Source: Minisyncoccota bacterium (GTDB taxonomy: Bacteria; Patescibacteriota; Minisyncoccia; Phycocordibacterales; JBAYGS01). From it: a DNA stretch of 64,000 bases. The stretch is from contig JBAYGS010000001.1 of the NCBI GenBank assembly GCA_041666545.1, positions 89,942-153,941 on the forward strand, written 5' to 3'. Positions 10,228 through 49,816 of this stretch are shown one piece after another (positions within the stretch are counted from its first letter, which is position 1; each line of letters begins with the position of its first letter). The notes beneath the pieces are model-generated. The model was not told where the DNA came from, did no database searches, and saw nothing but the letters and a program-made list of their open reading frames with translations. The position numbers were made by a program, and so were the translations under genes.

Positions 10228-11472
10228 ATGCGCCAGTCACAACTTTTCACTAAATCACGCAAAGAGGCTCCAAAAGATGAGGTGGCCAAGAACGCCGAAC
10301 TTTTGATTCGAGCCGGTTTTATCAATAAAGAAATGGCCGGTGCCTATTCTTATTTGCCTTTGGGCTTAAGGACTTTAAACAAAATTGTTGGGATCATCCG
10401 CGAGGAGATGAACGGCTTGGGCGCCCAGGAACTTTTTTTGACGGCGCTACAAGAAAAAACTGTTTGGGAAAAGACTGACCGCTGGAGCGACGATAAAGTT
10501 GATAACTGGTTTAAAACTAAATTAAAAAGTGGCACTGAATTAGGCTTAGGTTTTACTCACGAGGAACCACTGACGGCCTTGATGAAAAATCACATCAGCT
10601 CTTTTCGGGATTTACCACTCTCAGCCTACCAATTCCAAACCAAATTTAGAAATGAAGCCCGCGCCAAGAGTGGCATTTTGCGTGGTCGAGAATTTTTGAT
10701 GAAGGATTTGTATTCTTTTTCTAAAGACGAAAAAGAGCACAATGAATTTTATGAAAGGGTTAAGGGCGCTTACAGTCGAATTTTCCAAAAAGTCGGCTTG
10801 GGTGATCAGACCTATGTGACTTTTGCTTCCGGAGGAAGTTTTAGCAAATATTCCCACGAATTCCAAACTCTGACCTCAGCCGGTGAAGATAATATTTATG
10901 TTTGTAATTCCTGCCGCATCGCCGTCAACGAGGAAATTATTAAAGATCAGCCAACCTGTCCGAACTGTAAAAGCGACAAACTCGAAGTCAAAAAAGCGGT
11001 TGAAGTCGGCAATATTTTCAGTCTTGGCGATAGGTTTTCCAAAGCCTTGGATTTGGTGTATCTTGATCAGGCCGGCGTTAAGAAACCGGTGATTATGGGC
11101 TCCTACGGCATCGGCCCAGGCCGAGTCATGGGTACCATTGTTGAGATTAATTCCGATGAAAATGGCATCATCTGGCCAAAAGCGGTGGCACCCTTCCAAA
11201 TTCACCTGATTTCAGTTGACGGTGGCAAGCCGGAGATTAAGGAAAAGGCGGAGAAAATTTATGAGGCTCTACTCAAAAGTGGCACGGAAGTTTTGTTCGA
11301 TGACCGAGAATTGCGCGCCGGCGAAAAGTTTGCCGAAGCCGATTTGCTGGGTCTCCCGCTTCGAGTAGTCGTGAGTGATAAATCCTTGAAGGCTGGTGGC
11401 GTGGAAGTCAAAGAGCGCAAGGGTGGGGCAGTCCGAATTGTGGCAGAGGAGCACATTTTAAGCCAGGTCTAA
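10228..11472 (+). CDS. proS: prolyl-tRNA synthetase, short form without INS editing domain
   Basis: N-terminus QLFTKSRKEAPKDEVAKNAELLIRAGFI, class II motifs, only 414 aa. Confidence 0.85.
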   Translation: MRQSQLFTKSRKEAPKDEVAKNAELLIRAGFINKEMAGAYSYLPLGLRTLNKIVGIIREEMNGLGAQELFLTALQEKTVWEKTDRWSDDKVDNWFKTKLKSGTELGLGFTHEEPLTALMKNHISSFRDLPLSAYQFQTKFRNEARAKSGILRGREFLMKDLYSFSKDEKEHNEFYERVKGAYSRIFQKVGLGDQTYVTFASGGSFSKYSHEFQTLTSAGEDNIYVCNSCRIAVNEEIIKDQPTCPNCKSDKLEVKKAVEVGNIFSLGDRFSKALDLVYLDQAGVKKPVIMGSYGIGPGRVMGTIVEINSDENGIIWPKAVAPFQIHLISVDGGKPEIKEKAEKIYEALLKSGTEVLFDDRELRAGEKFAEADLLGLPLRVVVSDKSLKAGGVEVKERKGGAVRIVAEEHILSQV

Positions 11473-17263: not shown

Positions 17264-18409
17264 ATGAGGACCCATCTGGAAATTAAAAACGAAACCGAGG
17301 CTAAATTACTCGCCGAAATTCACAAGCGAACGGATTTTAAAGGTATTAGAATTCAAAATCTTTTAAAATTACCAGACCTGACGCTAAAGACAAACTCACC
17401 AATCCGATTTATTGTCGACAAGGTTGTTGCTTTGCCGCGCTTCAAGGATTTCGATATTGTCTCAATTCCCCAAATTATCAGCGTTAAGAACAACTTTGAT
17501 GTCCTAAATACGCCCAAGGATCACCCGAGCCGACGCGAAAGTGACACCTATTACGCCTCGCCGGATATGGTCTTGCGGACCCAGATGACCGATGTCTGGC
17601 CCTTTTATCTCCGCGAACCTTCAATCGTCAAAAAACTCAACAACGACGGGGAAGCGGGGGCGCTTTGTTTTGGTAAGGTTTATCGCAAGGACGAAATTGA
17701 CCGCAACCATTTTCCGGCCTTCCACCAAATCGACGGCCTTTATTTGTGCAAACGCGAGAAGCGAACCATTACCCAAAAAGATTTAGTTGATGTACTGGTC
17801 GATATCGCCAAAAGTCTCTACGGCGAGAAAGTCGAGTGGAAGGTGATTCCGGATGATTTCCCTTACACGCACCAGAGTGTCGAAATGGACATCATGATGA
17901 ACGGCAATTGGCTGGAGATTCTTGGAGCGGGCCTGGTCCGGGATATTGTTCTCGAGAACTTGGGTGTTGACCCAAAAGTTTACAATGGCTGGGCCTTCGG
18001 CTTCGGCTTGGATCGTTTAGCGATGATTAAAATGGGTATCAATGATATCCGAGTACTTTGGTCTGATGACGAAAGAATTACCCGCCAATTCACCAGTTTG
18101 GATTCGAAATTCAAGGAAGTCAGCAAATACCCGCAAGCCGTTCGCGACATCTCCTTCATTGTTGGCAAAGGCGTCGGCCTCAATAACTACTACGAGATTG
18201 TCCGCGACTGTGGTGGCAATTTGATTGAAGAGGTTAAACTACTCGACACCTATGATGATGAGAAAAAATTCGGCAAGGACAACATCAGCTACACTTTTCG
18301 AGTTGTCTACCGTTCTCCGGAGCGAACCCTGACCAGCAAAGAAATTAACGACATTCACGAACAAATCCGCTCCAAAACTGTCTCTGAATTGTCGGCCAAA
18401 CTCCGCTAG
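17264..18409 (+). CDS. pheS: monomeric (mitochondrial-type) phenylalanyl-tRNA synthetase: PheS catalytic core fused to FDX-ACB anticodon-binding domain
   Basis: Class IIc motifs FGKVYRKDEIDRNHFPAFHQIDG and GWAFGFGLDRLAMI. The C-terminal SKYPQAVRDISFIV...YRSPERTLTSKEIN matches the FDX-ACB (PheT B8-like) domain. Confidence 0.75.
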   Translation: MRTHLEIKNETEAKLLAEIHKRTDFKGIRIQNLLKLPDLTLKTNSPIRFIVDKVVALPRFKDFDIVSIPQIISVKNNFDVLNTPKDHPSRRESDTYYASPDMVLRTQMTDVWPFYLREPSIVKKLNNDGEAGALCFGKVYRKDEIDRNHFPAFHQIDGLYLCKREKRTITQKDLVDVLVDIAKSLYGEKVEWKVIPDDFPYTHQSVEMDIMMNGNWLEILGAGLVRDIVLENLGVDPKVYNGWAFGFGLDRLAMIKMGINDIRVLWSDDERITRQFTSLDSKFKEVSKYPQAVRDISFIVGKGVGLNNYYEIVRDCGGNLIEEVKLLDTYDDEKKFGKDNISYTFRVVYRSPERTLTSKEINDIHEQIRSKTVSELSAKLR

Positions 18410-18420
18410 GCATTAAAAAA

Positions 18421-18443
18421 CCCCGACTTGTCATCGGGGTTTG
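18421..18443. terminator. bidirectional intrinsic terminator
   Basis: ccccga-cttgtca-tcgggg, flanked by A-run and T-run. Confidence 0.6.
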
Positions 18444-18447
18444 AAAT

Positions 18448-18521
18448 TGGCAGCGGCGAGGAGACTTGAACCCCTACGGGCGGTTTTGGAGACCGCTGGC
18501 CTACCATTAGCCGACGCCGCT
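18448..18521 (-). tRNA. tRNA-Trp (anticodon CCA)
   Basis: Hand-folded cloverleaf: acceptor AGCGGCG/CGCCGCU, D-loop AATGGTA, anticodon stem GCGGU/ACCGC with loop CUCCAAA, T-loop TTCAAGT, discriminator G, encoded CCA. Confidence 0.8.
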
Positions 18522-20531: not shown

Positions 20532-21902
20532 ATGAAAACGAAAGCCGTTCCGATTACCGAAATTAGTGAAATCCGTCGAATTCTCTGCCCACCAAATCTG
20601 GACCGTTCTGAACTGTTGGCGTCCAGGAGACAAGGGTCTCCTGAGCTAAAAGTCGAACAGGAAGTGCGAGCCATGAAATCTGTCACTTTCCACTGTGGAA
20701 AGTGTAAGGTCAATACGTGTGGCATCGAAAATGATCCTGGTGCCTCTGTCCGCCACTGTCCAGGCTGCAATTCAATCTTGATGCTCTGCCCGGTCTGCCA
20801 CAAGGCAACATCTGGCACGGAAAAATTCAAGATTCTCATCTGCGACAGTTGCCACACAGAGTTTGTCACCGACACAACAGTCCAATCGCTTATCGATATG
20901 GACCGCAAATCTCGACAAGTGGTACTCTCTGGAATCCGGGCGACCAACCGTCTTCACCTGGGAAATTTCCTGGGTGCAATCCGACAGTTCGTCCAGTATT
21001 CAACAGGCGACAACCTGTGTCTCTATTTCATTGCCGATTGGCACACTCTGACGACCTGTCAGGATGCCGCCACCGTTACCGGCAACAGTGTTGAAATCGC
21101 CATGAATTACATCGCCGCAGGACTCGATCCGGAGCGATCAATCATCTACGCGCAGTCCAGTGTTCCAGAAATTGCCGAGCTTGCCCTGTATCTTTCGATG
21201 ATTCAGGACAAAGGTGAACTCGAAGTTCTGCCGACACTCAAGGATCTGCTCCGTGGTGGTGCCAACATGAATCTGGGCCATCTCTCTTACCCGGTCCTCA
21301 TGGCTGCCGACATCCTGGGTCCAAAGGCGACCTTAGTGCCGGTTGGTTCTGATCAGATTCCAAATGTTGAATTGGCGCGTCGTTTGGCGAAGAAGTTCAA
21401 CCGCCGTTTCGGCCAGACCTTCGTGATTCCCGAAATCGGAGAGCAGAAGGTTAAGATCCCGGGCCTCGGTGGCGGTAAAATGGCCAAGTCAGACGAAAGT
21501 TCCTGCATCTTCATTGATGACGCCGCTGAGGTTGTGGCGAAAAAGTATGCCAAGCACGGAGTCACCGACAAGAACAAGGTCAAACGCGACGATTCCGGTG
21601 TTCCCGAAAATTGTGCCTCAATCTATCCGGTCTACCAAGTCCTTCTTGGGGAGGAGTCCTCCTTGCTTCAAGAAGTTGCAAACGGATGTAGGGTCGGTTC
21701 GCGAACCTGCCAGGAGTGCAAGGCTGAACTCGCCAAAATGGTGAACTCAATTCTTGAACCAGTTCGCGTCAAACGCCGCGAACTGGGGGGGAAGAGGGAA
21801 TTCGTCCGTGAAGTCCTGCACTTCGGTGGCTTAAAAGCCCGTGAGATAATTCGGCCGACCCTCGAGCTGGTTCGAGAAAAGCTCGGTATCATCGCGCCTT
21901 AG
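20532..21902 (+). CDS. trpS: tryptophanyl-tRNA synthetase paralog with N-terminal tandem zinc-ribbon extension
   Basis: Core: VVLSGIRATNRLHLGN (HIGH), YPVLMAADIL, VPVGSDQIPNVELARRLAKKFN, KMAKS. The N-terminal 120 aa carry four CxxC pairs (HCGKC/HCPGC, LCPVCH/ICDSCH). A canonical-looking internal start exists at 20898 (MDRKSRQVVLSG). GC-richer than the backbone. Confidence 0.75.
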   Translation: MKTKAVPITEISEIRRILCPPNLDRSELLASRRQGSPELKVEQEVRAMKSVTFHCGKCKVNTCGIENDPGASVRHCPGCNSILMLCPVCHKATSGTEKFKILICDSCHTEFVTDTTVQSLIDMDRKSRQVVLSGIRATNRLHLGNFLGAIRQFVQYSTGDNLCLYFIADWHTLTTCQDAATVTGNSVEIAMNYIAAGLDPERSIIYAQSSVPEIAELALYLSMIQDKGELEVLPTLKDLLRGGANMNLGHLSYPVLMAADILGPKATLVPVGSDQIPNVELARRLAKKFNRRFGQTFVIPEIGEQKVKIPGLGGGKMAKSDESSCIFIDDAAEVVAKKYAKHGVTDKNKVKRDDSGVPENCASIYPVYQVLLGEESSLLQEVANGCRVGSRTCQECKAELAKMVNSILEPVRVKRRELGGKREFVREVLHFGGLKAREIIRPTLELVREKLGIIAP

Positions 21903-38310: not shown

Positions 38311-39603
38311 ATGAAACTGCCGTACAAGACAACAGAGGAAGTGCGCCAGACATTTCTGGGGCATTTTCTGAAACGTGATCATCGTCTCATCGAGCCATCA
38401 GGGATCATCCCAAAGAACGATCCGACCCTCATGTTCATTAACTCGGGCATGGCTCCGCTCAAGCCCTTCTTCACGGGCCAAGAGAAGCCCCCATCCCCAC
38501 GTCTGACGAATGTGCAGGACTGCATCAGGTTTGTGGATGTTGAAAGCGTCGGCGACTCTTATCACGGAACGAACTTTCGGATGATGGGGTCGTGGTCCTT
38601 CGGAGATTATTTCAAGGAACGAGCTATTGAGCTTGCCTTTGAACTCATTACCGACGGATTCGGAATCCCTGTTGACCGACTTTCTGCCACAGTATTCATG
38701 GCCGACGAAAGTCTACCCGGTGTGCCGAGCGATGAAGAGTCAGCCCGTATCTGGGAAAAGTTCCTGCCACGAGATCGTATCATTGGCCGACCGCCAGTCG
38801 ATAACTTCTGGGGTCCAGCTGGAACCAGTGGTCCATGTGGACCGTGCACTGAAGTTTTTTTTGATCGAGGTGAGGAATTCGCCGAGAAAAAAATCGACGA
38901 CGTGCTGGTTCCTGGGCGGCACATTGAGATCTGGAATGCCGGAGTGTTCATGCAATACTTCAAGGATGAGCAGGGGAATTTTTCCTCGCTTCCTATGAAG
39001 TGTGTGGATACAGGCGCAGGGCTCGAGCGTTTCGCAATGATTCTTCAGGATCGTGCTTCGATTCACGAAATCGATCAGTACGATTTGACCTATCAACTCA
39101 TCAATCAGCGCGTTGGTGATACGGCATGGACACGGGTCATACTTGATCATGTCAAGACCTCGATTCTGATGATTCGGGAAGGTATCGTCCCAAGCAACAC
39201 TCGGGAAGGGTATCTTCTCCGTCGTGCGCTTCGGCGTGCAATGATTGGTGTCTTCCTGCGGGGGATCAATCTGACCATTCTTCAGGAGTGGGCAGACTCC
39301 CTTAGTCAAGTGATTGATAACAAGGACCTGACCTTCCGTCAGAAATCTGTTATTGCTCACTGGCTCAGCGAGGAGCGTGACAGCTTCGAGAAGCTGATGC
39401 GTCGCAGCAGGAAGTATCTCGACAAGATCGTGGCCTCTAAGGAGTTGGATGCGCAACACGCATTCACTTTGAAAACCGGCATAGGCATCCCCGAAGATCT
39501 TTTGGAGGAATTCTGTGTTCGTCAAGGCATTCTGTTTCCGAAGGTTGAGTTCCTTCGACTTATCGGGGAACACCGGAACATCTCTCGTCGGCCGAAGAAG
39601 TAG
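38311..39603 (+). CDS. alaS: alanyl-tRNA synthetase, N-terminal aminoacylation + tRNA-recognition half only (430 aa)
   Basis: FINSGMAPLKPFF, QDCIRFVDVESVGDSYHGTNFRMMGSWSFGDYFK, GPCGPCTEVFFDRG, EIWNAGVFMQYF, VDTGAGLERFAMILQ. Ends with a strong terminator at 39622-39653. No editing or C-Ala domains. Confidence 0.8.
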   Translation: MKLPYKTTEEVRQTFLGHFLKRDHRLIEPSGIIPKNDPTLMFINSGMAPLKPFFTGQEKPPSPRLTNVQDCIRFVDVESVGDSYHGTNFRMMGSWSFGDYFKERAIELAFELITDGFGIPVDRLSATVFMADESLPGVPSDEESARIWEKFLPRDRIIGRPPVDNFWGPAGTSGPCGPCTEVFFDRGEEFAEKKIDDVLVPGRHIEIWNAGVFMQYFKDEQGNFSSLPMKCVDTGAGLERFAMILQDRASIHEIDQYDLTYQLINQRVGDTAWTRVILDHVKTSILMIREGIVPSNTREGYLLRRALRRAMIGVFLRGINLTILQEWADSLSQVIDNKDLTFRQKSVIAHWLSEERDSFEKLMRRSRKYLDKIVASKELDAQHAFTLKTGIGIPEDLLEEFCVRQGILFPKVEFLRLIGEHRNISRRPKK

Positions 39604-40362: not shown

Positions 40363-41817
40363 CTATACCCTCGGCCTCATGAGAGGGAAAAGCTGAGCTT
40401 CGCGGATGCTTTTACCAGAGAGGAAACTGAAGAGTCGCTCCGAGACACCGAAACCAAACATCGGCGGCATGCCATATTCCATCGCCTCAACATATTCAAA
40501 GTCGGCCATTTGGGCCTCTTCATCGCCGGCATCACGGAGTTTTTGCTGTTTTTCAAAGCGCTCACGCTGATCGATAGGATTATTAAGCTCATTAAAAGCC
40601 TTGCCAACTTCACTACCCGCCAGGACAATCTGAAAGCGATCAACTACCCGATTATCTTTAGCATTCATCTTAGCGAGTGGTTCCAGATACACCGGAATAC
40701 CAGTCAAAACTGCCGGACCGCCGAGAGTCTTGCGGATTTGCTTCCAGAGCAAATCCACGCCTCGCCCGACATCAATCTTGGGTTCGTGAGGAATTTTTTC
40801 TTTTTTCAGAGAATCAAACACCGTGTTCAAATCAACCGTGCAGGGGTCAAAACCATATTTTTCAGACATCAGGTCGTTGTAATCAAGCTTTTGCCAGTCT
40901 GCCCCGAGATCAATCTCAAACTTTCCAATCGTAAATTTCAGAGTGCCGAAAGTTTTCTGGGCGACTTCGCGATACAAATCAATCAACATCGGCACACCCT
41001 TTCTCGCATCTTGAAAAGCCTCGTAAAATTCGAAGTGAGTGTAGTCTTGAGCGTGTTCGTAGGACATACCTTCGTTTCGGAACACTCGTCCGATTTCAAA
41101 GGTTTTTGGAATCCCGCCGACCATCAACTTCTTGTGCCACAATTCGGTCGAAATGCGAAGATAAACATCCAAGTCCAAGGCATTGTGGTGAGTGATAAAA
41201 GGTCGGGCTTCAGCGCCACCAGTTTTGGTCTCCAGAATCGGAGTTTCAACTTCAACAAAACCCCGCACAAGCATAAACGAACGGACCGCATTCCAAAAAA
41301 TCGAGCGCTTCCTCGCAATTTCGGCCACCTCGGGATTTAAAAGCATATCCAAGTAGCGTTTGCGGTACCGTTCATCCTCATCCTTCAGACCAAACCATTC
41401 GTCCGGCACTTGGCGCAGACTTTTAGCGAGCATTCGCCAACTGGTGCCGAGTAGGGAATTGGCCCCGCGTTTGGTAGTAAATGGGGTGCCTGTCACCTCT
41501 ATAAAATCGCTGGTATCAACTGTTTCAGTGAACAATTTAAAACTGTCCTCACCCAAGTCATCTTTCTTAATCAATGCCTGGACACGAGCGGTGCCATCAA
41601 ACAAATCGACGAAAATAATGCTACCTTGATCTCGACGAGACATAATCCGGCCAGCCAGGGTGACCGACTTTCCGGATTTCAAAAGCGCCTCAAAAGACTC
41701 GGCAAAAGTCCGATTATCATGACTACGAAAAGACTCGGCCGGATAAGGATCGATGCCGTGTCCCCTCAATATTTCCAATTTGGCCAGACGCTCAGAGCGT
41801 GTATCTTCGATAGACAT
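40363..41817 (-). CDS. lysS: lysyl-tRNA synthetase (class II)
   Basis: N-terminal OB domain, class IIb motifs. 484 aa. Confidence 0.9.
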   Translation of the reverse strand: MSIEDTRSERLAKLEILRGHGIDPYPAESFRSHDNRTFAESFEALLKSGKSVTLAGRIMSRRDQGSIIFVDLFDGTARVQALIKKDDLGEDSFKLFTETVDTSDFIEVTGTPFTTKRGANSLLGTSWRMLAKSLRQVPDEWFGLKDEDERYRKRYLDMLLNPEVAEIARKRSIFWNAVRSFMLVRGFVEVETPILETKTGGAEARPFITHHNALDLDVYLRISTELWHKKLMVGGIPKTFEIGRVFRNEGMSYEHAQDYTHFEFYEAFQDARKGVPMLIDLYREVAQKTFGTLKFTIGKFEIDLGADWQKLDYNDLMSEKYGFDPCTVDLNTVFDSLKKEKIPHEPKIDVGRGVDLLWKQIRKTLGGPAVLTGIPVYLEPLAKMNAKDNRVVDRFQIVLAGSEVGKAFNELNNPIDQRERFEKQQKLRDAGDEEAQMADFEYVEAMEYGMPPMFGFGVSERLFSFLSGKSIREAQLFPLMRPRV

Positions 41818-42120: not shown

Positions 42121-43452
42121 ATGAAAAAAGCTCCCGCCAAGGACAACCCGGCCGTCATGGAGGATATAATCTCACTCGCCAAGAGGCGAGGCTTTATCTA
42201 TCAAGGCTCCGAGATTTACGGCGGTCTTTCCGGAACCTGGGACTACGGCCCTTTGGGTGTGGCACTTAAAGACAACATCCGCCAGATTTGGTGGAAACAA
42301 TTTGTACTCGACCGTGACGATATGTACGGGATGGATGCCGCGATTTTGATGAATCAAAAAGTTTGGCAGGCGACCGGCCACGCGACTAACTTTTCCGACC
42401 CTCTCACCCCATGTCTAAAATGCAAAAAACAATTCCGCACTGACCACCTAAACGGCGCCACCAAGTGTCCGGAATGTGGGGGCAATTTCGGCCCAGAGAG
42501 AAAATTCAACATGATGTTTAAGACCAATGTCGGCCCTGAAGAAGGTGGAGGAAGTTTGTCATATTTGCGACCGGAAACCGCTCAAGGTATGTTTGTGAAT
42601 TTCAAAAATGTTTTGGATTCCTTCCATCCTAAATTGCCTTTTGGTCTGGCCCAAGTCGGTAAGGCTTTCCGAAACGAAATCTCGCCTCGAGACTTCACTT
42701 TCCGAGCTCGTGAGTTTGAACAAATGGAGATTGAATATTTTGTTAAACCAGAGGGTTGGGAGAAGATTTTTGAACATTTCGTTTCTGAAATGAGAAACTT
42801 TATCTCGGCCGTTGGAATTTCTGCGGACAAAGTCCACGAAAAAGAAATCGGCGATGCCGATCGGGCCTTTTATTCCAAACGCACGATTGATTTTGAATTT
42901 GATTTCCCTTTTGGCCAAAGCGAGCTTTACGGCTTGGCTTACCGTACCGATTATGACCTGAAAGCCCACGAAACCGAAAGTGGCAAGACTTTGGTTTATA
43001 CTGACACCGAAGCCAACGAGACTTTAGTGCCACACTGCATCGAGCCATCATTTGGTCTTGATCGAACCGTTTTGGCGGTCCTTTCAAGCGCCTTCAAAAA
43101 AGAGAAAACTGGCGAGGATGAGAGGATTGTTTTGAAATTTAACCCTAAAGTTGCTCCGGTATTGCTCGCAGTCTCGCCGCTTCTCCGAAACAAGCCGAAG
43201 TTGGTTGAAAAAGCCCAAGAAATCTACAAAACCTTGAAAAAGGAATTTGGCCGAGTGATGTTTGATGACAATGGCAACATCGGCAAGCGTTATCGCAGGC
43301 AAGATGAAATCGGCACGCCATTTTGCATTACTGTCGACTTCGACACCATTGAAAAAGATGACACTGTCACTGTCCGTGACCGAGACACGATGGAACAAGT
43401 CCGAATTAGATCCGACGAACTCGTCTCATTTTTTAAGAACAAATTAGCCTAG
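42121..43452 (+). CDS. glyQS: glycyl-tRNA synthetase, dimeric (glyQS-type)
   Basis: Eukaryote/archaeal-like class II GlyRS motifs. 443 aa. Confidence 0.9.
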   Translation: MKKAPAKDNPAVMEDIISLAKRRGFIYQGSEIYGGLSGTWDYGPLGVALKDNIRQIWWKQFVLDRDDMYGMDAAILMNQKVWQATGHATNFSDPLTPCLKCKKQFRTDHLNGATKCPECGGNFGPERKFNMMFKTNVGPEEGGGSLSYLRPETAQGMFVNFKNVLDSFHPKLPFGLAQVGKAFRNEISPRDFTFRAREFEQMEIEYFVKPEGWEKIFEHFVSEMRNFISAVGISADKVHEKEIGDADRAFYSKRTIDFEFDFPFGQSELYGLAYRTDYDLKAHETESGKTLVYTDTEANETLVPHCIEPSFGLDRTVLAVLSSAFKKEKTGEDERIVLKFNPKVAPVLLAVSPLLRNKPKLVEKAQEIYKTLKKEFGRVMFDDNGNIGKRYRRQDEIGTPFCITVDFDTIEKDDTVTVRDRDTMEQVRIRSDELVSFFKNKLA

Positions 43453-44006: not shown

Positions 44007-44049
44007 ATTGCTTTATCACAATTAAATTTTGAGATATACTGAAGCAACT

Positions 44050-45009
44050 ATGGCCGACAAAAAGAAAATTTTACTATCGGGCATCAAACCAACCGGCAAT
44101 TTGCATTTGGGCAACTATTTCGGAGCGATCAAGCAATTCGTAGAATTGCAAAATAAGTACGATTCCTATGTTTTCATCGCCGACTATCACGCCATGACAA
44201 CTCTCCTTGATGCCAAGGAACTATCAGAGAATAGTTTTAACATTGCGGTAGATTACATGGCCTTGGGTCTTGACCCGACGAAAATGACGCTTTTCAAGCA
44301 AAGCGACCTGCCCCAAGTGACCGAACTTTGCTGGATTTTCAACTGTCTAACAACTGTGCCATACCTCGAAAGAGCTCACGCCTATAAGGACGCGGTCGCC
44401 AAAGGTAAAGAGGCCAACATCGGACTTTTTGATTACCCAATTTTGATGGCCGCTGATATTTTAATCCAGGATGCTGATATCGTACCGGTGGGGCAAGACC
44501 AGAAACAACATGTCGAATACGCTCGCGACACGGCGGAAAAATTTAACCGCACCTTCGGTAAAGCCTTTAAAATTCCTGAACCTTACATCCTGAAAGATGT
44601 CGCCGTGGTCCCCGGAATTGACGGTCAAAAAATGAGCAAGAGCTATAACAACACCATTCCTATTTTCGCTTCAGATGAAGAGATCAAAAAACTAGTTATG
44701 GGGATTGTCACCGATTCCAACTCCGGACGTCCCGAAAATGTTTACGCCATTCATAAGCTGATTAAACCGGAAGCCGAGCTTGAAAAAGTTTACACAGAAT
44801 TTGCCGGCAAGTATCAAAAATTAAAGGAGGCTCTTTACAATGACCTCGTCTCATTCTTGACACCCTTCCGTGAAAAACGGGAGCAACTGCTTAAGGATAG
44901 GGCAGGGGTCTTGGCAATTCTCAAAGCTGGAGGCGACAAAGCCCGCGCCCGCGCTGAAGCTAAAATGGCAGAGGTCCGTAAACTGACCGGCCTGACTTTG
45001 ACCGCTTAA
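44050..45009 (+). CDS. trpS: tryptophanyl-tRNA synthetase (canonical)
   Basis: ILLSGIKPTGNLHLGNYFGAI, YPILMAADIL, VPVGQDQKQHVEYARDTAEKFN, KMSKS. The ORF is open from 44029. Confidence 0.85.
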   Translation: MADKKKILLSGIKPTGNLHLGNYFGAIKQFVELQNKYDSYVFIADYHAMTTLLDAKELSENSFNIAVDYMALGLDPTKMTLFKQSDLPQVTELCWIFNCLTTVPYLERAHAYKDAVAKGKEANIGLFDYPILMAADILIQDADIVPVGQDQKQHVEYARDTAEKFNRTFGKAFKIPEPYILKDVAVVPGIDGQKMSKSYNNTIPIFASDEEIKKLVMGIVTDSNSGRPENVYAIHKLIKPEAELEKVYTEFAGKYQKLKEALYNDLVSFLTPFREKREQLLKDRAGVLAILKAGGDKARARAEAKMAEVRKLTGLTLTA

Positions 45010-48487: not shown

Positions 48488-49816
48488 ATGGAAAGAGCAT
48501 ACATCAAGGACTTAAAAACCAAGGTAGGCGAGGAAGTTACAATCGCCGGTTTTGTCGATATCAGGCGAGATCACGGCAAGCTGATTTTTATGGATTTGCG
48601 AGATGTCACCGGCAAAGTTCAGATGGTAATTTTGCCAAACCATAAGGAGGCGCAAGAGGTGGCAAAGGAATCGCGGCCGGAGTGGGTACTGGAAATCAAG
48701 GGCAAGGTGAACGCCCGGCCCGAGAAAATGATTAACAAGGATGAGCTTAATGGGACAATTGAAATTGAGGCGCTTGAAGTAAAGGTGCTCGGCAAAGCCC
48801 AAGAATTGCCGTTTGAAAAAAATACTGAAGTTAACATCGACACTTATCTCGACAACCTACCTTTCACCTTGCGCAAGGATCGCTCCCGAGCCATCTTCAA
48901 AGTTCAGTCACAAATCATGAAGAGTTTTCGCAATTATTTTATGAGCGAGGGCTTCATTGAATTTCAGGCCCCAAAGCTTATCGGTGACGATGCTGAAGGT
49001 GGAGCCAACTCTTTTGACATTACCTACTTCAAGCATGTGGCCCACTTGGCGCAAAGCCCACAGCTTTACAAACAAATTATGGTGGGAGTTTTTGAGCGAG
49101 TTTTCACTTCCGGCAACGTCTACCGAGCCGAGAAGCACAGTACCACTCGCCACTTAAACGAGTACACCTCGCTCGATATTGAAATGGGCTTCATCAAAGA
49201 CCACACAGATGTGATGCTGACCGAGACTGGCTTCCTCCAAAAATTGGAGGCTGACTTACAGGCCAACTGCGCCGGTGAGTTCGCCACCTTGAAAGCCGAA
49301 ATTCCAAGAGTACCAAAAGAAATTCCGGCTCTGTCTTTGCGAGAGGCCCAGAAATTGATTACCAAGGAGACCGGTAAGGATTGCACCCATGAGCCGGATC
49401 TCGAGCCGGAGCATGAAAGATGGCTCTGTGAATATGCCAAAAAAGAGTTTGGTTCAGATTTTATCTTCGTCACCAATTTCCCGACTGCTAAAAGGCCTTT
49501 TTACACCTATCGAGATGAGAAAGACCCGACCTACACCAAAGGCTTCGACCTTTTGTTCAGGGGAGTGGAAATTACGACCGGTGCCCAGCGAATCCACGAC
49601 TATGACGCTCTGGTTTCTTCGATGAAAGAGAAAGGATTAAATCCGGAGAAATTTGCTTTCTACCTTCAGGCCTTCAAATACGGCATGCCGCCGCACGGTG
49701 GTTTCGGCTTGGGCTTGGAGAGATTGACCCAAAAAATGCTTGGCTTGGACAACGTGAAAGAAGCTACTCTTTTCCCACGAGACCTAAACCGAATTGACGT
49801 CCGATTGTCGGAGTAG
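48488..49816 (+). CDS. aspartyl/asparaginyl-tRNA synthetase, archaeal-type class IIb (Asp vs Asn not resolved)
   Basis: N-terminal OB fold, QSPQLYKQ, FRAE and GGFGLGLERL motifs. 442 aa. Confidence 0.8.
   Translation: MERAYIKDLKTKVGEEVTIAGFVDIRRDHGKLIFMDLRDVTGKVQMVILPNHKEAQEVAKESRPEWVLEIKGKVNARPEKMINKDELNGTIEIEALEVKVLGKAQELPFEKNTEVNIDTYLDNLPFTLRKDRSRAIFKVQSQIMKSFRNYFMSEGFIEFQAPKLIGDDAEGGANSFDITYFKHVAHLAQSPQLYKQIMVGVFERVFTSGNVYRAEKHSTTRHLNEYTSLDIEMGFIKDHTDVMLTETGFLQKLEADLQANCAGEFATLKAEIPRVPKEIPALSLREAQKLITKETGKDCTHEPDLEPEHERWLCEYAKKEFGSDFIFVTNFPTAKRPFYTYRDEKDPTYTKGFDLLFRGVEITTGAQRIHDYDALVSSMKEKGLNPEKFAFYLQAFKYGMPPHGGFGLGLERLTQKMLGLDNVKEATLFPRDLNRIDVRLSE

What the first reader, a model, noticed from the sequence alone, without database searches (positions are those of the whole stretch)
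17264..18409. Single-chain, mitochondrial-type PheRS (PheS core fused to FDX-ACB domain)
The class IIc PheS catalytic motifs are followed by a C-terminal ~95-aa segment (SKYPQAVRDISFIV…YRSPERTLTSKEIN) that matches the ferredoxin-like anticodon-binding domain. That domain is normally found at the C-terminus of the bacterial beta subunit and in monomeric organellar PheRS.

No pheT is adjacent. Bacterial PheRS is normally an alpha2-beta2 tetramer, so a monomeric enzyme would be noteworthy and would lack the beta-subunit editing site.
Basis: partly seen in the sequence, partly recalled or inferred. Interest (0 to 1): 0.55.

Follow-up and report, generated by a model that had tools for sequence, protein, structure and literature searches.

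The report
Bacterial single-chain, mitochondrial-type PheRS
This gene from an uncultivated "candidate phyla radiation" bacterium encodes a one-chain phenylalanyl-tRNA synthetase built like the mitochondrial enzyme and lacking any proofreading module; hundreds of related bacterial species carry the same form, although textbooks treat it as organelle-specific.

Summary
ORF 17264-18409 (+, 381 aa) is a class IIc PheS catalytic core (aa 43-276) fused to a C-terminal FDX-ACB anticodon-binding domain (aa 287-381).

An AlphaFold model (pLDDT 95.6) superposes over its whole length on human mitochondrial PheRS (TM 0.80). All Phe/ATP-pocket residues and the four G34-contact residues (D328, Y330, S342, R381) are conserved.

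The source is a Patescibacteria (CPR) MAG. The same ~380-aa protein occurs in at least 566 GTDB species representatives (Nealson-, Taylor-, Staskawicz-, Jorgensenbacteria and others). No pheT or second pheS was found in the window or in 162 relatives' loci (about 2 Mb).

Short canonical pheS-pheT pairs do exist in other CPR lineages, named mostly as Microgenomates. This suggests the two forms are complementary.

In an NJ tree, the single-chain forms are monophyletic. The bacterial clade is sister to an organellar/viral clade.

It is not SrmL, a CPR relative with a remodelled pocket.

Best reading: this is the organism's housekeeping, editing-less PheRS. Monomer status and genome-wide absence of pheT remain untested. 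No paper describing it was found.

The parts
17264..18409 (+). Complete gene for the single-chain PheRS (381 aa plus TAG stop).
   Evidence: ORF list. The exact protein is in public data as 'hypothetical protein WC250_02065 [Candidatus Paceibacterota bacterium]' and as JGI 'phenylalanyl-tRNA synthetase alpha chain'.
17264..17389 (+). Short N-terminal helical region (aa 1-42). It replaces the long coiled-coil of canonical PheS.
   Evidence: No PF02912 hit. The AF2 model shows two helices, at aa 10-21 and 25-35.
17390..18091 (+). Class IIc catalytic core (aa 43-276) carrying motifs 1-3.
   Evidence: PF01409, E 1.6e-56. Residues H87/S89/R90, R141, H149, F153-H154-Q155, F199/Y201/T202/S205, E218/G221/G223, A244/G246 and R251 align to E. 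coli PheS H149/A151/R152, R195, H202, F206-Q208, F248/F250/T251/S254, E268/G271/G273, A294/G296 and R301. They are invariant in CPR relatives, except Y201 (about 75%).
18092..18121 (+). Linker or hinge between the catalytic core and the anticodon-binding domain (aa 277-286).
   Evidence: It lies between the two Pfam matches and is non-regular in the AF2 model.
18122..18406 (+). FDX-ACB (ferredoxin-fold) anticodon-binding domain (aa 287-381).
   Evidence: PF03147, E 1.9e-23. D328, Y330, S342 and R381 correspond to human mitochondrial PheRS D364, F366, S375 and R414, which contact G34 (alignment; PMC7540514). D328, Y330 and S342 also correspond to E. coli PheT D742, Y744 and S755. All four are invariant in 39 CPR sequences.
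18416..18443 (+). Terminator-like G+C hairpin (CCCCGA...TCGGGG) followed by TTT, 7 nt after the stop codon.
   Evidence: Read directly from the sequence. No terminator scan was run.

Best explanation
The gene encodes the cell's working phenylalanyl-tRNA synthetase in a single-chain form equivalent to mitochondrial PheRS (FARS2/MSF1 type).

The class II catalytic core makes Phe-AMP. The C-terminal ferredoxin-fold domain reads G34 of the tRNA-Phe GAA anticodon through an Asp/Tyr/Ser/Arg set. By analogy with the human enzyme, this domain must swing away from a closed resting position so that the acceptor end can reach the active site.

No beta subunit is present, so there is no B3/B4 post-transfer editing site. 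Phe/Tyr discrimination must therefore rest on the synthetic site or on factors acting in trans.

Shown here: the architecture, the predicted fold, residue conservation, wide distribution in CPR bacteria, and absence of pheT nearby.

Inferred: catalytic activity, monomeric state, hinge motion, and that it is the only PheRS in the genome.
For: - **Domains:** PF01409 plus PF03147 on one 381-aa chain.
- **Closest solved structures:** human mitochondrial PheRS at E 6e-56, against 4e-39 for bacterial PheS.
- **Predicted fold:** the AF2 model has pLDDT 95.6 and pTM 0.90. It superposes on 3CMQ (closed state) at TM 0.80 and rmsd 2.7 A over the whole chain. Canonical PheS chains cover only the catalytic half.
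- **Residues:** every pocket, motif 2/3 and G34-contact residue is retained.
- **Distribution:** more than 5,700 database relatives, and the top 120 all have the same two domains at about 380 aa. At least 566 GTDB species representatives carry it, including the complete genomes AP024682.1, OY969557.1 and OZ246412.1. Median pairwise identity within the family is 73%.
- **Gene context:** it sits among housekeeping genes. gyrB lies directly downstream in 42 of 73 informative loci.
- **No partner genes found:** no PheT, B3_4/B5 or second PheS in the window plus 162 loci, 2.14 Mb in total.
- **Canonical form elsewhere:** short pheS-pheT pairs occur in other CPR. Their named relatives are Woyke-, Collier- and Gottesmanbacteria (Microgenomates) and Magasanikbacteria. 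No contig-length fingerprint is shared with single-chain carriers.
- **Substrate tRNA:** a standard tRNA-Phe(GAA) with A73 lies 3.3 kb from the gene in a relative.
Against: - The whole source genome could not be read, so a pheS-pheT pair or an archaeal-type PheRS elsewhere is not excluded.
- The sampling test is weak. Two to three chance pheT encounters would be expected if pheT were present and unlinked, giving P(0) of about 0.04-0.14.
- The NCBIfam pheS_mito score of 251.3 is just under the curated cut-off of 258.35.
- PGAP calls the protein hypothetical.
- Mukai et al. 2017 note that many CPR do have PheRS-beta.
- Oligomeric state and activity were not measured.
- The closed-state model may reflect AlphaFold's training on 3CMQ.
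Confidence: 0.75

Rival explanations
1. The gene is an extra PheS-like paralogue that coexists with a normal alpha2-beta2 PheRS encoded elsewhere in the genome. It would serve a redundant or specialised role, for example stress-resistant charging or supplying Phe-tRNA to a non-ribosomal process.
For: Some CPR bacteria do carry pheS-pheT. The rest of this genome was not seen. A single-chain relative with unknown function (SrmL) exists in CPR.
Against: CPR genomes are about 0.5-0.9 Mb, and redundancy for an aaRS would be unusual (inference). Named PheT relatives come from other CPR groups, and no contig fingerprints overlap. There is no pheT or second pheS in 2.14 Mb around 163 copies. The protein is very strongly conserved, with canonical PheRS residues intact.
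Confidence: 0.14
2. The gene is a member of the SrmL 'PheS-related mystery ligase' family, a neofunctionalised ligase with a different amino-acid and/or RNA substrate.
For: NF051887 matches over nearly its full length at 247.7 bits. SrmL-type proteins share the architecture and also occur in CPR.
Against: The score is below the curated cut-off of 300. SrmL-type sequences carry H87N, S89G, F199H, S205G, G221E and W243L, and they replace the G34 contacts (D328E/S, Y330T, S342N, R381 lost). The window protein keeps the canonical residue at every one of these positions. Identity between the two groups is only about 30%.
Confidence: 0.03
3. The gene is a recent horizontal acquisition or a binning contaminant from a eukaryote, giant virus or huge phage, and is not native to the bacterium.
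For: Single-chain PheRS genes occur on huge-phage and giant-virus contigs. The closest solved structure is eukaryotic.
Against: The gene sits in a bacterial housekeeping context (MreB/MreC/PBP2/GreA upstream), and the GC content of that region is in line with the rest of the window. The CPR sequences form their own clade with 100% NJ bootstrap, separate from the eukaryote/virus clade at 93%. Synteny with gyrB is conserved across many species.
Confidence: 0.03

Closest known systems
Mitochondrial/organellar monomeric PheRS (human FARS2, yeast MSF1; 'PheRS-M'; TIGR00469; PDB 3CMQ, 3TUP)
   Same: It has the same two-module chain (PheS catalytic core plus FDX-ACB), with no beta subunit and no editing domain. 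The predicted whole-chain fold is the same (TM 0.80). The G34-recognition residues and Phe-pocket residues are the same.
   Different: The host is a bacterium, and there is no transit peptide. It lacks the roughly 35-aa insertion in the catalytic domain that splits the alignment to the human enzyme. Identity is about 30%. It falls in a bacterial sister clade rather than inside the organellar clade, and it scores just under the TIGR00469 cut-off. It has D157 where organellar and canonical enzymes have Glu, and Y201 where they have Phe.
Canonical bacterial PheRS alpha2-beta2 (PheS TIGR00468 + PheT TIGR00472), including the shortened CPR version (L011: PheT 660 aa without B1/B2)
   Same: The catalytic core is homologous to PheS (35% identity to E. 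coli PheS). The C-terminal domain is homologous to the last domain (B8) of PheT.
   Different: It is one chain instead of two. It has no N-terminal coiled-coil and no B1-B7 modules, so no B3/B4 editing site. It scores 177, below the pheS cut-off of 237.
SrmL, 'PheS-related mystery ligase' (NCBIfam NF051887)
   Same: The overall architecture and length class are the same. SrmL is also found in CPR genomes, and in one Nomurabacteria contig it sits in the same slot upstream of gyrB.
   Different: SrmL-type proteins have a remodelled amino-acid pocket and have lost the G34 contacts. The window protein keeps all of these and scores below the SrmL cut-off.
Single-chain PheRS genes of huge phages and giant viruses
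   Same: They have the same fused architecture, matching the window protein from about aa 40 to 381.
   Different: Identity is 30-41%. They group with the eukaryote-type clade and pass the pheS_mito cut-off. They are carried on viral contigs of roughly 5 kb to 1.5 Mb, many of them over 200 kb.

Membership tests
Monomeric mitochondrial-type PheRS (PheRS-M / TIGR00469) | Class IIc PheS-type catalytic core. | tested here: met
   PF01409, E 1.6e-56. Motif and pocket residues are conserved.
Monomeric mitochondrial-type PheRS (PheRS-M / TIGR00469) | FDX-ACB anticodon-binding domain fused to the C-terminus of the same chain. | tested here: met
   PF03147 at aa 287-381, E 1.9e-23. The AF2 model shows a beta-alpha-beta-beta-alpha-type fold.
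Monomeric mitochondrial-type PheRS (PheRS-M / TIGR00469) | No beta-subunit modules (B1-B7, including the B3/B4 editing site) in the chain. | tested here: met
   The chain is 381 aa with only two Pfam domains. A CPR PheT profile matches only the C-terminal part.
Monomeric mitochondrial-type PheRS (PheRS-M / TIGR00469) | Whole-chain structural similarity to solved mitochondrial PheRS. | tested here: met
   Foldseek against 3CMQ gives E 8.7e-36, TM 0.80 and rmsd 2.7 A over 389 columns. This is a predicted model, not a solved structure.
Monomeric mitochondrial-type PheRS (PheRS-M / TIGR00469) | G34-recognition residues (human D364, F366, S375, R414). | tested here: met
   D328, Y330, S342 and R381 are invariant in 39 CPR sequences.
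Monomeric mitochondrial-type PheRS (PheRS-M / TIGR00469) | Score at or above NCBIfam's curated cut-off for TIGR00469 (258.35 bits). | tested here: not met
   251.3 bits. The nearest 50%-identity representative, P0121, scores 264.3 and passes.
Monomeric mitochondrial-type PheRS (PheRS-M / TIGR00469) | Placement inside the organellar clade / eukaryotic host. | tested here: not met
   The genomic context is bacterial. In the NJ tree the CPR clade (100%) lies outside the eukaryote/virus clade (93%), as its sister.
Monomeric mitochondrial-type PheRS (PheRS-M / TIGR00469) | Active as a monomer; charges tRNA-Phe. | not testable with these tools
   Needs purified protein (SEC-MALS and aminoacylation assays).
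Canonical bacterial PheRS alpha subunit (TIGR00468) | Score at or above the cut-off of 237.45 and an N-terminal coiled-coil (PF02912). | tested here: not met
   177 bits. No PF02912 hit.
Canonical bacterial PheRS alpha subunit (TIGR00468) | Partner pheT gene in the genome, usually adjacent. | tested here: inconclusive
   None in the 64-kb window or in 162 relatives' loci. The whole genome could not be read.
SrmL PheS-related mystery ligase (NF051887) | Score at or above the curated cut-off of 300 bits. | tested here: not met
   247.7 bits. A true member, P0255, scores 359.
SrmL PheS-related mystery ligase (NF051887) | Family-specific residue pattern in the pocket and the ACB domain. | tested here: not met
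   SrmL-type sequences have N87, G89, H199, G205, E221, L243, T330 and N342. The window protein has H, S, F, S, G, W, Y and S at these positions.

The most novel reading that the evidence does not exclude
The fused 'mitochondrial' PheRS was not invented by eukaryotes. A single fusion of the PheS core and the PheT B8 domain arose in bacteria (or their phages) and is the native housekeeping enzyme of a major CPR radiation. Eukaryotes then obtained FARS2/MSF1 from such a lineage by horizontal transfer, possibly through large viruses. CPR cells would therefore translate Phe codons without any PheRS proofreading, as part of a wider loss of aaRS editing domains (ProRS and AlaRS in this window also lack theirs).
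Probability: 0.3. Interest if true: 0.75.

Novelty: new member of a known kind. Interest (0 to 1): 0.6.

Why it matters
A 2010 review states that the heterotetrameric organisation of prokaryotic PheRS is conserved in all known species, and that the mitochondrial enzyme is the only monomeric class II core (PMC3275996).

A whole bacterial radiation using the single-chain, editing-less form would matter in four ways:
- It overturns that generalisation.
- It gives a prokaryotic sister group for tracing the origin of mitochondrial PheRS.
- It raises the question of how tiny-genome bacteria tolerate or avoid Tyr and meta-Tyr misincorporation.
- It explains why annotation pipelines and marker sets built on pheT/pheS models mis-score these genomes: PGAP labels the protein 'hypothetical'.

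Tried and rejected
- **Literature:** ten full-text searches found no paper describing a single-chain PheRS in bacteria or CPR. Only Mukai 2017 mentions CPR PheRS-beta lacking B2.
- **Whole-genome test for pheT:** not possible, because no tool reads whole contigs. Three proxies were substituted:
  - Name and contig-length fingerprints of PheT relatives against single-chain relatives showed no overlap, but each list is truncated at 80-120 entries.
  - Profile scans of 2.14 Mb of flanking DNA found no pheT. The power is weak, with P(0) of about 0.04-0.14.
  - I looked for an infC-rpmI-rplT cluster with an empty pheST slot. None of the fetched loci contained rplT.
- **Seed for a CPR PheT:** canonical PheS P0242 turned out to be a Gram-negative locus without an adjacent pheT. 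P0244 worked.
- **SrmL membership:** rejected on score and residues.
- **Fusion as an assembly or frameshift artefact:** rejected, because thousands of independent sequences have the same length and domain pair.
- **Organism labels:** labels on some public MAGs ('Saccharibacteria', 'Gammaproteobacteria', 'Bdellovibrionales', 'Nanoarchaeota') were not trusted as evidence of wider distribution.

Full report
**Observation**

Pfam finds the class II PheS core (PF01409, aa 43-276, E 1.6e-56). It also finds a full-length FDX-ACB domain (PF03147, aa 287-381, E 1.9e-23).

NCBIfam ranks the mitochondrial PheRS model first: TIGR00469 at 251.3 bits, against a curated cut-off of 258.35. Next come NF051887, 'PheS-related mystery ligase SrmL' (247.7 bits, cut-off 300), then bacterial pheS (177 bits, cut-off 237). 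The C-terminal tail of pheT_bact also matches (aa 271-381 to profile positions 690-798).

Among solved structures, the best sequence matches are human mitochondrial PheRS entries (3CMQ, 5MGU; E about 6e-56). These are well ahead of bacterial PheS (E about 4e-39). PheT chains match only through their last domain.

The region's GC content is unremarkable. A terminator-like hairpin follows the stop codon, and a tRNA-Trp gene lies on the opposite strand 39 nt downstream.

**Structure and functional residues**

An AlphaFold2 model was built from a 53-sequence alignment. It is confident, with mean pLDDT 95.6 and pTM 0.90.

Foldseek against the PDB puts human mitochondrial PheRS in its closed state first (3CMQ: E 8.7e-36, TM 0.80, rmsd 2.7 A over the whole chain). 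The tRNA-bound open state 3TUP gives TM 0.59. Canonical PheS chains cover only the catalytic half.

The catalytic residues align to E. coli PheS as follows:

| Window protein | E. coli PheS |
|---|---|
| H87 / S89 / R90 | H149 / A151 / R152 |
| R141 | R195 (the motif-2 Arg, by my reading) |
| H149 | H202 |
| F153-H154-Q155 | F206-H207-Q208 |
| F199 / Y201 / T202 / S205 | F248 / F250 / T251 / S254 |
| E218 / G221 / G223 | E268 / G271 / G273 |
| A244 | A294 (a known pocket-size determinant, by my recollection) |
| R251 | R301 (the motif-3 Arg, by my reading) |

Peretz et al. showed that human mitochondrial PheRS recognises G34 through D364, F366, S375 and R414, and that D364G abolishes activity (PMC7540514). 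In the alignment these correspond to D328, Y330, S342 and the C-terminal R381 of the window protein. D328, Y330 and S342 also align to E. coli PheT D742, Y744 and S755. All four are invariant in 39 CPR relatives.

**Organism and distribution**

The identical protein is recorded as 'hypothetical protein WC250_02065 [Candidatus Paceibacterota bacterium]' on a 341-kb contig. JGI calls it a PheRS alpha chain. More than 5,700 database proteins match at E below 1e-10. The best 120 are all about 380 aa with the same two Pfam domains, and every name given is from Patescibacteria/CPR.

The best 80 are 57-69% identical. They include Nealson-, Taylor-, Staskawicz- and Jorgensenbacteria and 'Parcubacteria', among them the complete genomes AP024682.1 (561,860 bp), OY969557.1 and OZ246412.1. 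JGI metagenomes gave at least 587 more contigs. Within the family the median pairwise identity is 73%.

The gene sits among housekeeping genes. In 42 of 73 informative loci, gyrB follows it directly on the same strand. In this window it instead follows MreB-MreC-PBP2-GreA and an acyltransferase.

**Is there a beta subunit?**

None is present in the window. No ORF exceeds 601 aa. E. coli PheT and a CPR PheT match only the gene's own C-terminal domain.

I recovered a canonical CPR operon, thrS-sua5-infC-rpmI-rplT-pheS-pheT (L011). Its PheT is 660 aa and lacks the B1/B2 domains. This agrees with Mukai et al.'s remark that many CPR PheRS-beta lack B2 (PMC5370408).

The 120 best relatives of this PheT carry the names Woyke-, Collier-, Gottesman- and Magasanikbacteria, plus generic labels. 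None carries a name from the Parcubacteria-type groups that hold the single-chain gene. No 'longest contig' value is shared between the PheT list and the single-chain lists.

I built a profile from 80 CPR PheTs and searched the window plus 162 relatives' loci, 2.14 Mb in total. It matched only the 163 single-chain genes, and only through their C-terminal part. No B3_4/B5 region and no second PheS-like ORF was found.

If every genome had an unlinked pheT, about 2-3.3 chance encounters would be expected. That gives P(0) of about 0.04-0.14, which is suggestive but not decisive. The whole genome could not be read with these tools, so 'sole PheRS' remains an inference.

A standard tRNA-Phe(GAA) with A73 lies 3.3 kb from the gene in one relative.

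**Relatives and evolution**

A search of 1.84 billion cluster representatives found 260 proteins at E below 1e-30. Many of the best 150 are single-chain PheS+FDX-ACB proteins.

An NJ tree on 344 columns was rooted on canonical PheS (plus PheT ACB domains). Support values from 200 bootstraps:

| Grouping | Support |
|---|---|
| All single-chain forms monophyletic | 100% |
| CPR clade | 100% |
| CPR plus an Oligoflexia MAG protein (P0122) | 91% |
| Wider bacterial clade | 70% |
| Large clade with human FARS2 and a Vitrella protein | 93% |

The wider bacterial clade is sister to that large clade. The 'eukaryote-type' clade also contains proteins from huge-phage contigs (P0147 on 494 kb, P0134 on 160 kb). 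In IMG/VR, 43 contigs carry full-length single-chain PheRS, including many over 200 kb and giant-virus MAGs.

The topology fits a single ancient fusion. The direction of transfer between bacteria, viruses and eukaryotes is not resolved by this rough tree.

**SrmL**

P0255 passes the SrmL model (359 bits, above the cut-off of 300). It branches deepest in the bacterial clade.

Its relatives fall into groups of about 400 aa and about 377 aa. They are also from CPR: Nomura- and Jorgensenbacteria and Minisyncoccia. They keep the residues aligned with R141, H149 and R251, which I read as the ATP-binding set. However, they replace pocket residues (H87N, S89G, F199H, S205G, G221E, W243L). They also replace the G34 contacts (D328E/S, Y330T, S342N, R381 absent).

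The window protein keeps the canonical residue at every one of these positions and is only about 30% identical to them. It is therefore not SrmL.

One point is unexplained. In a Nomurabacteria contig, the SrmL-type gene occupies the same slot upstream of gyrB that the bona fide enzyme occupies elsewhere.

**Mechanism**

The following is inferred by homology; only the sequence and predicted-structure parts are shown here. The core activates Phe with ATP. The FDX-ACB domain binds the anticodon, stacking Y330 on G34 and hydrogen-bonding through D328, S342 and R381.

In human mitochondrial PheRS the resting state is closed. It must open through a large hinge movement for the acceptor stem to reach the active site (PMC3275996; 3CMQ versus 3TUP).

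There is no B3/B4 site, so no cis post-transfer editing of Tyr-tRNA-Phe can occur. No free-standing B3/B4 homologue was seen in the sampled DNA.

**Novelty**

A 2010 review states that the heterotetramer is conserved in all known prokaryotes. It also states that the mitochondrial enzyme is the only monomeric class II catalytic module. The aaRS classification papers list PheRS-M as mitochondrial-like only. I found no paper describing the bacterial form in ten searches. NCBI's pipeline labels the protein hypothetical.

The enzyme type itself is known. What is new is its status as the apparent housekeeping PheRS of a large bacterial radiation, and as a prokaryotic sister group of the organellar enzyme. 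I therefore rate it a new member of a known kind, with moderately high interest.

**Context worth noting**

The window holds eight aaRS genes within about 40 kb. The ProRS (414 aa, INS editing domain apparently missing) and the AlaRS (430 aa, catalytic half only) also lack their usual editing domains. The editing-less PheRS may therefore be part of a general pattern in this organism.

Noticed in passing
window 10228-49816: Eight aminoacyl-tRNA synthetase genes lie within about 40 kb: ProRS 10228-11472, PheRS 17264-18409, TrpRS 20532-21902, AlaRS 38311-39603, LysRS 40363-41817 (-), GlyRS 42121-43452, a second TrpRS 44029-45009, and a non-discriminating AspRS 48488-49816. This is far denser than expected for a genome of about 0.8 Mb.
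   Followed up: partly
window 10228-11472 and 38311-39603: The ProRS is only 414 aa and matches the 568-aa bacterial model in two stretches, so the INS editing domain is apparently missing. The AlaRS is only 430 aa and covers positions 1-429 of the 847-aa alaS model, with no editing or C-Ala domain and no adjacent gene supplying them. Together with PheRS, this suggests a broad loss of cis-editing.
   Followed up: partly
window 20532-21902 and 18448-18521: TrpRS copy 1 has an N-terminal extension of about 125 aa with four CxxC motifs (two zinc-ribbon-like units). It also has a C-x24-C-x6-C-x2-C motif near the C-terminus, reminiscent of Fe-S-containing TrpRS. It lies close to the only tRNA gene in the window, tRNA-Trp(CCA) on the minus strand. 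A second, plain 326-aa TrpRS is at 44029-45009.
   Followed up: no
L139 8001-9194; L140 8001-9134; L138 941-2191; proteins P0255, P0420-P0538: SrmL-type 'mystery ligase' proteins are a CPR family (Nomura- and Jorgensenbacteria, Minisyncoccia). They have the same PheS+ACB architecture but a remodelled amino-acid pocket and no G34 contacts. In L139 the gene sits directly upstream of gyrB, the slot used by the true single-chain PheRS in 42 of 73 other loci. Its substrate, and the source of Phe-tRNA in those genomes, are unknown.
   Followed up: partly
L093, L094, L095-L137 (IMG/VR contigs): Full-length single-chain PheRS genes occur on 43 viral contigs. Many are over 200 kb (huge phages, with terminase, T4 RNA ligase and another aaRS nearby), some are giant-virus MAGs, and one contig is 1.47 Mb. 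They group with the eukaryote-type clade.
   Followed up: partly
L006 10001-11245 (JAIBBV010000034.1): A 414-aa single-chain PheRS, 50% identical to the window protein, sits in an Oligoflexia MAG. It is the closest non-CPR-labelled bacterial relative (91% NJ support with the CPR clade). No pheT lies within 10 kb.
   Followed up: partly
L011 312-6910: A canonical CPR operon, thrS-sua5-infC-rpmI-rplT-pheS-pheT, has a 660-aa PheT lacking the B1/B2 (tRNA_bind) domains. About 650-690-aa PheTs of this kind are common in Microgenomates-type CPR.
   Followed up: yes
L014, L075, L083, L089 and many 'binchicken' records: Several public MAGs carrying typical CPR-type single-chain PheRS (about 60% identity) are labelled Gammaproteobacteria, Nanoarchaeota, Bdellovibrionales or Saccharibacteria. 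These are probably mislabelled or mis-binned records.
   Followed up: no
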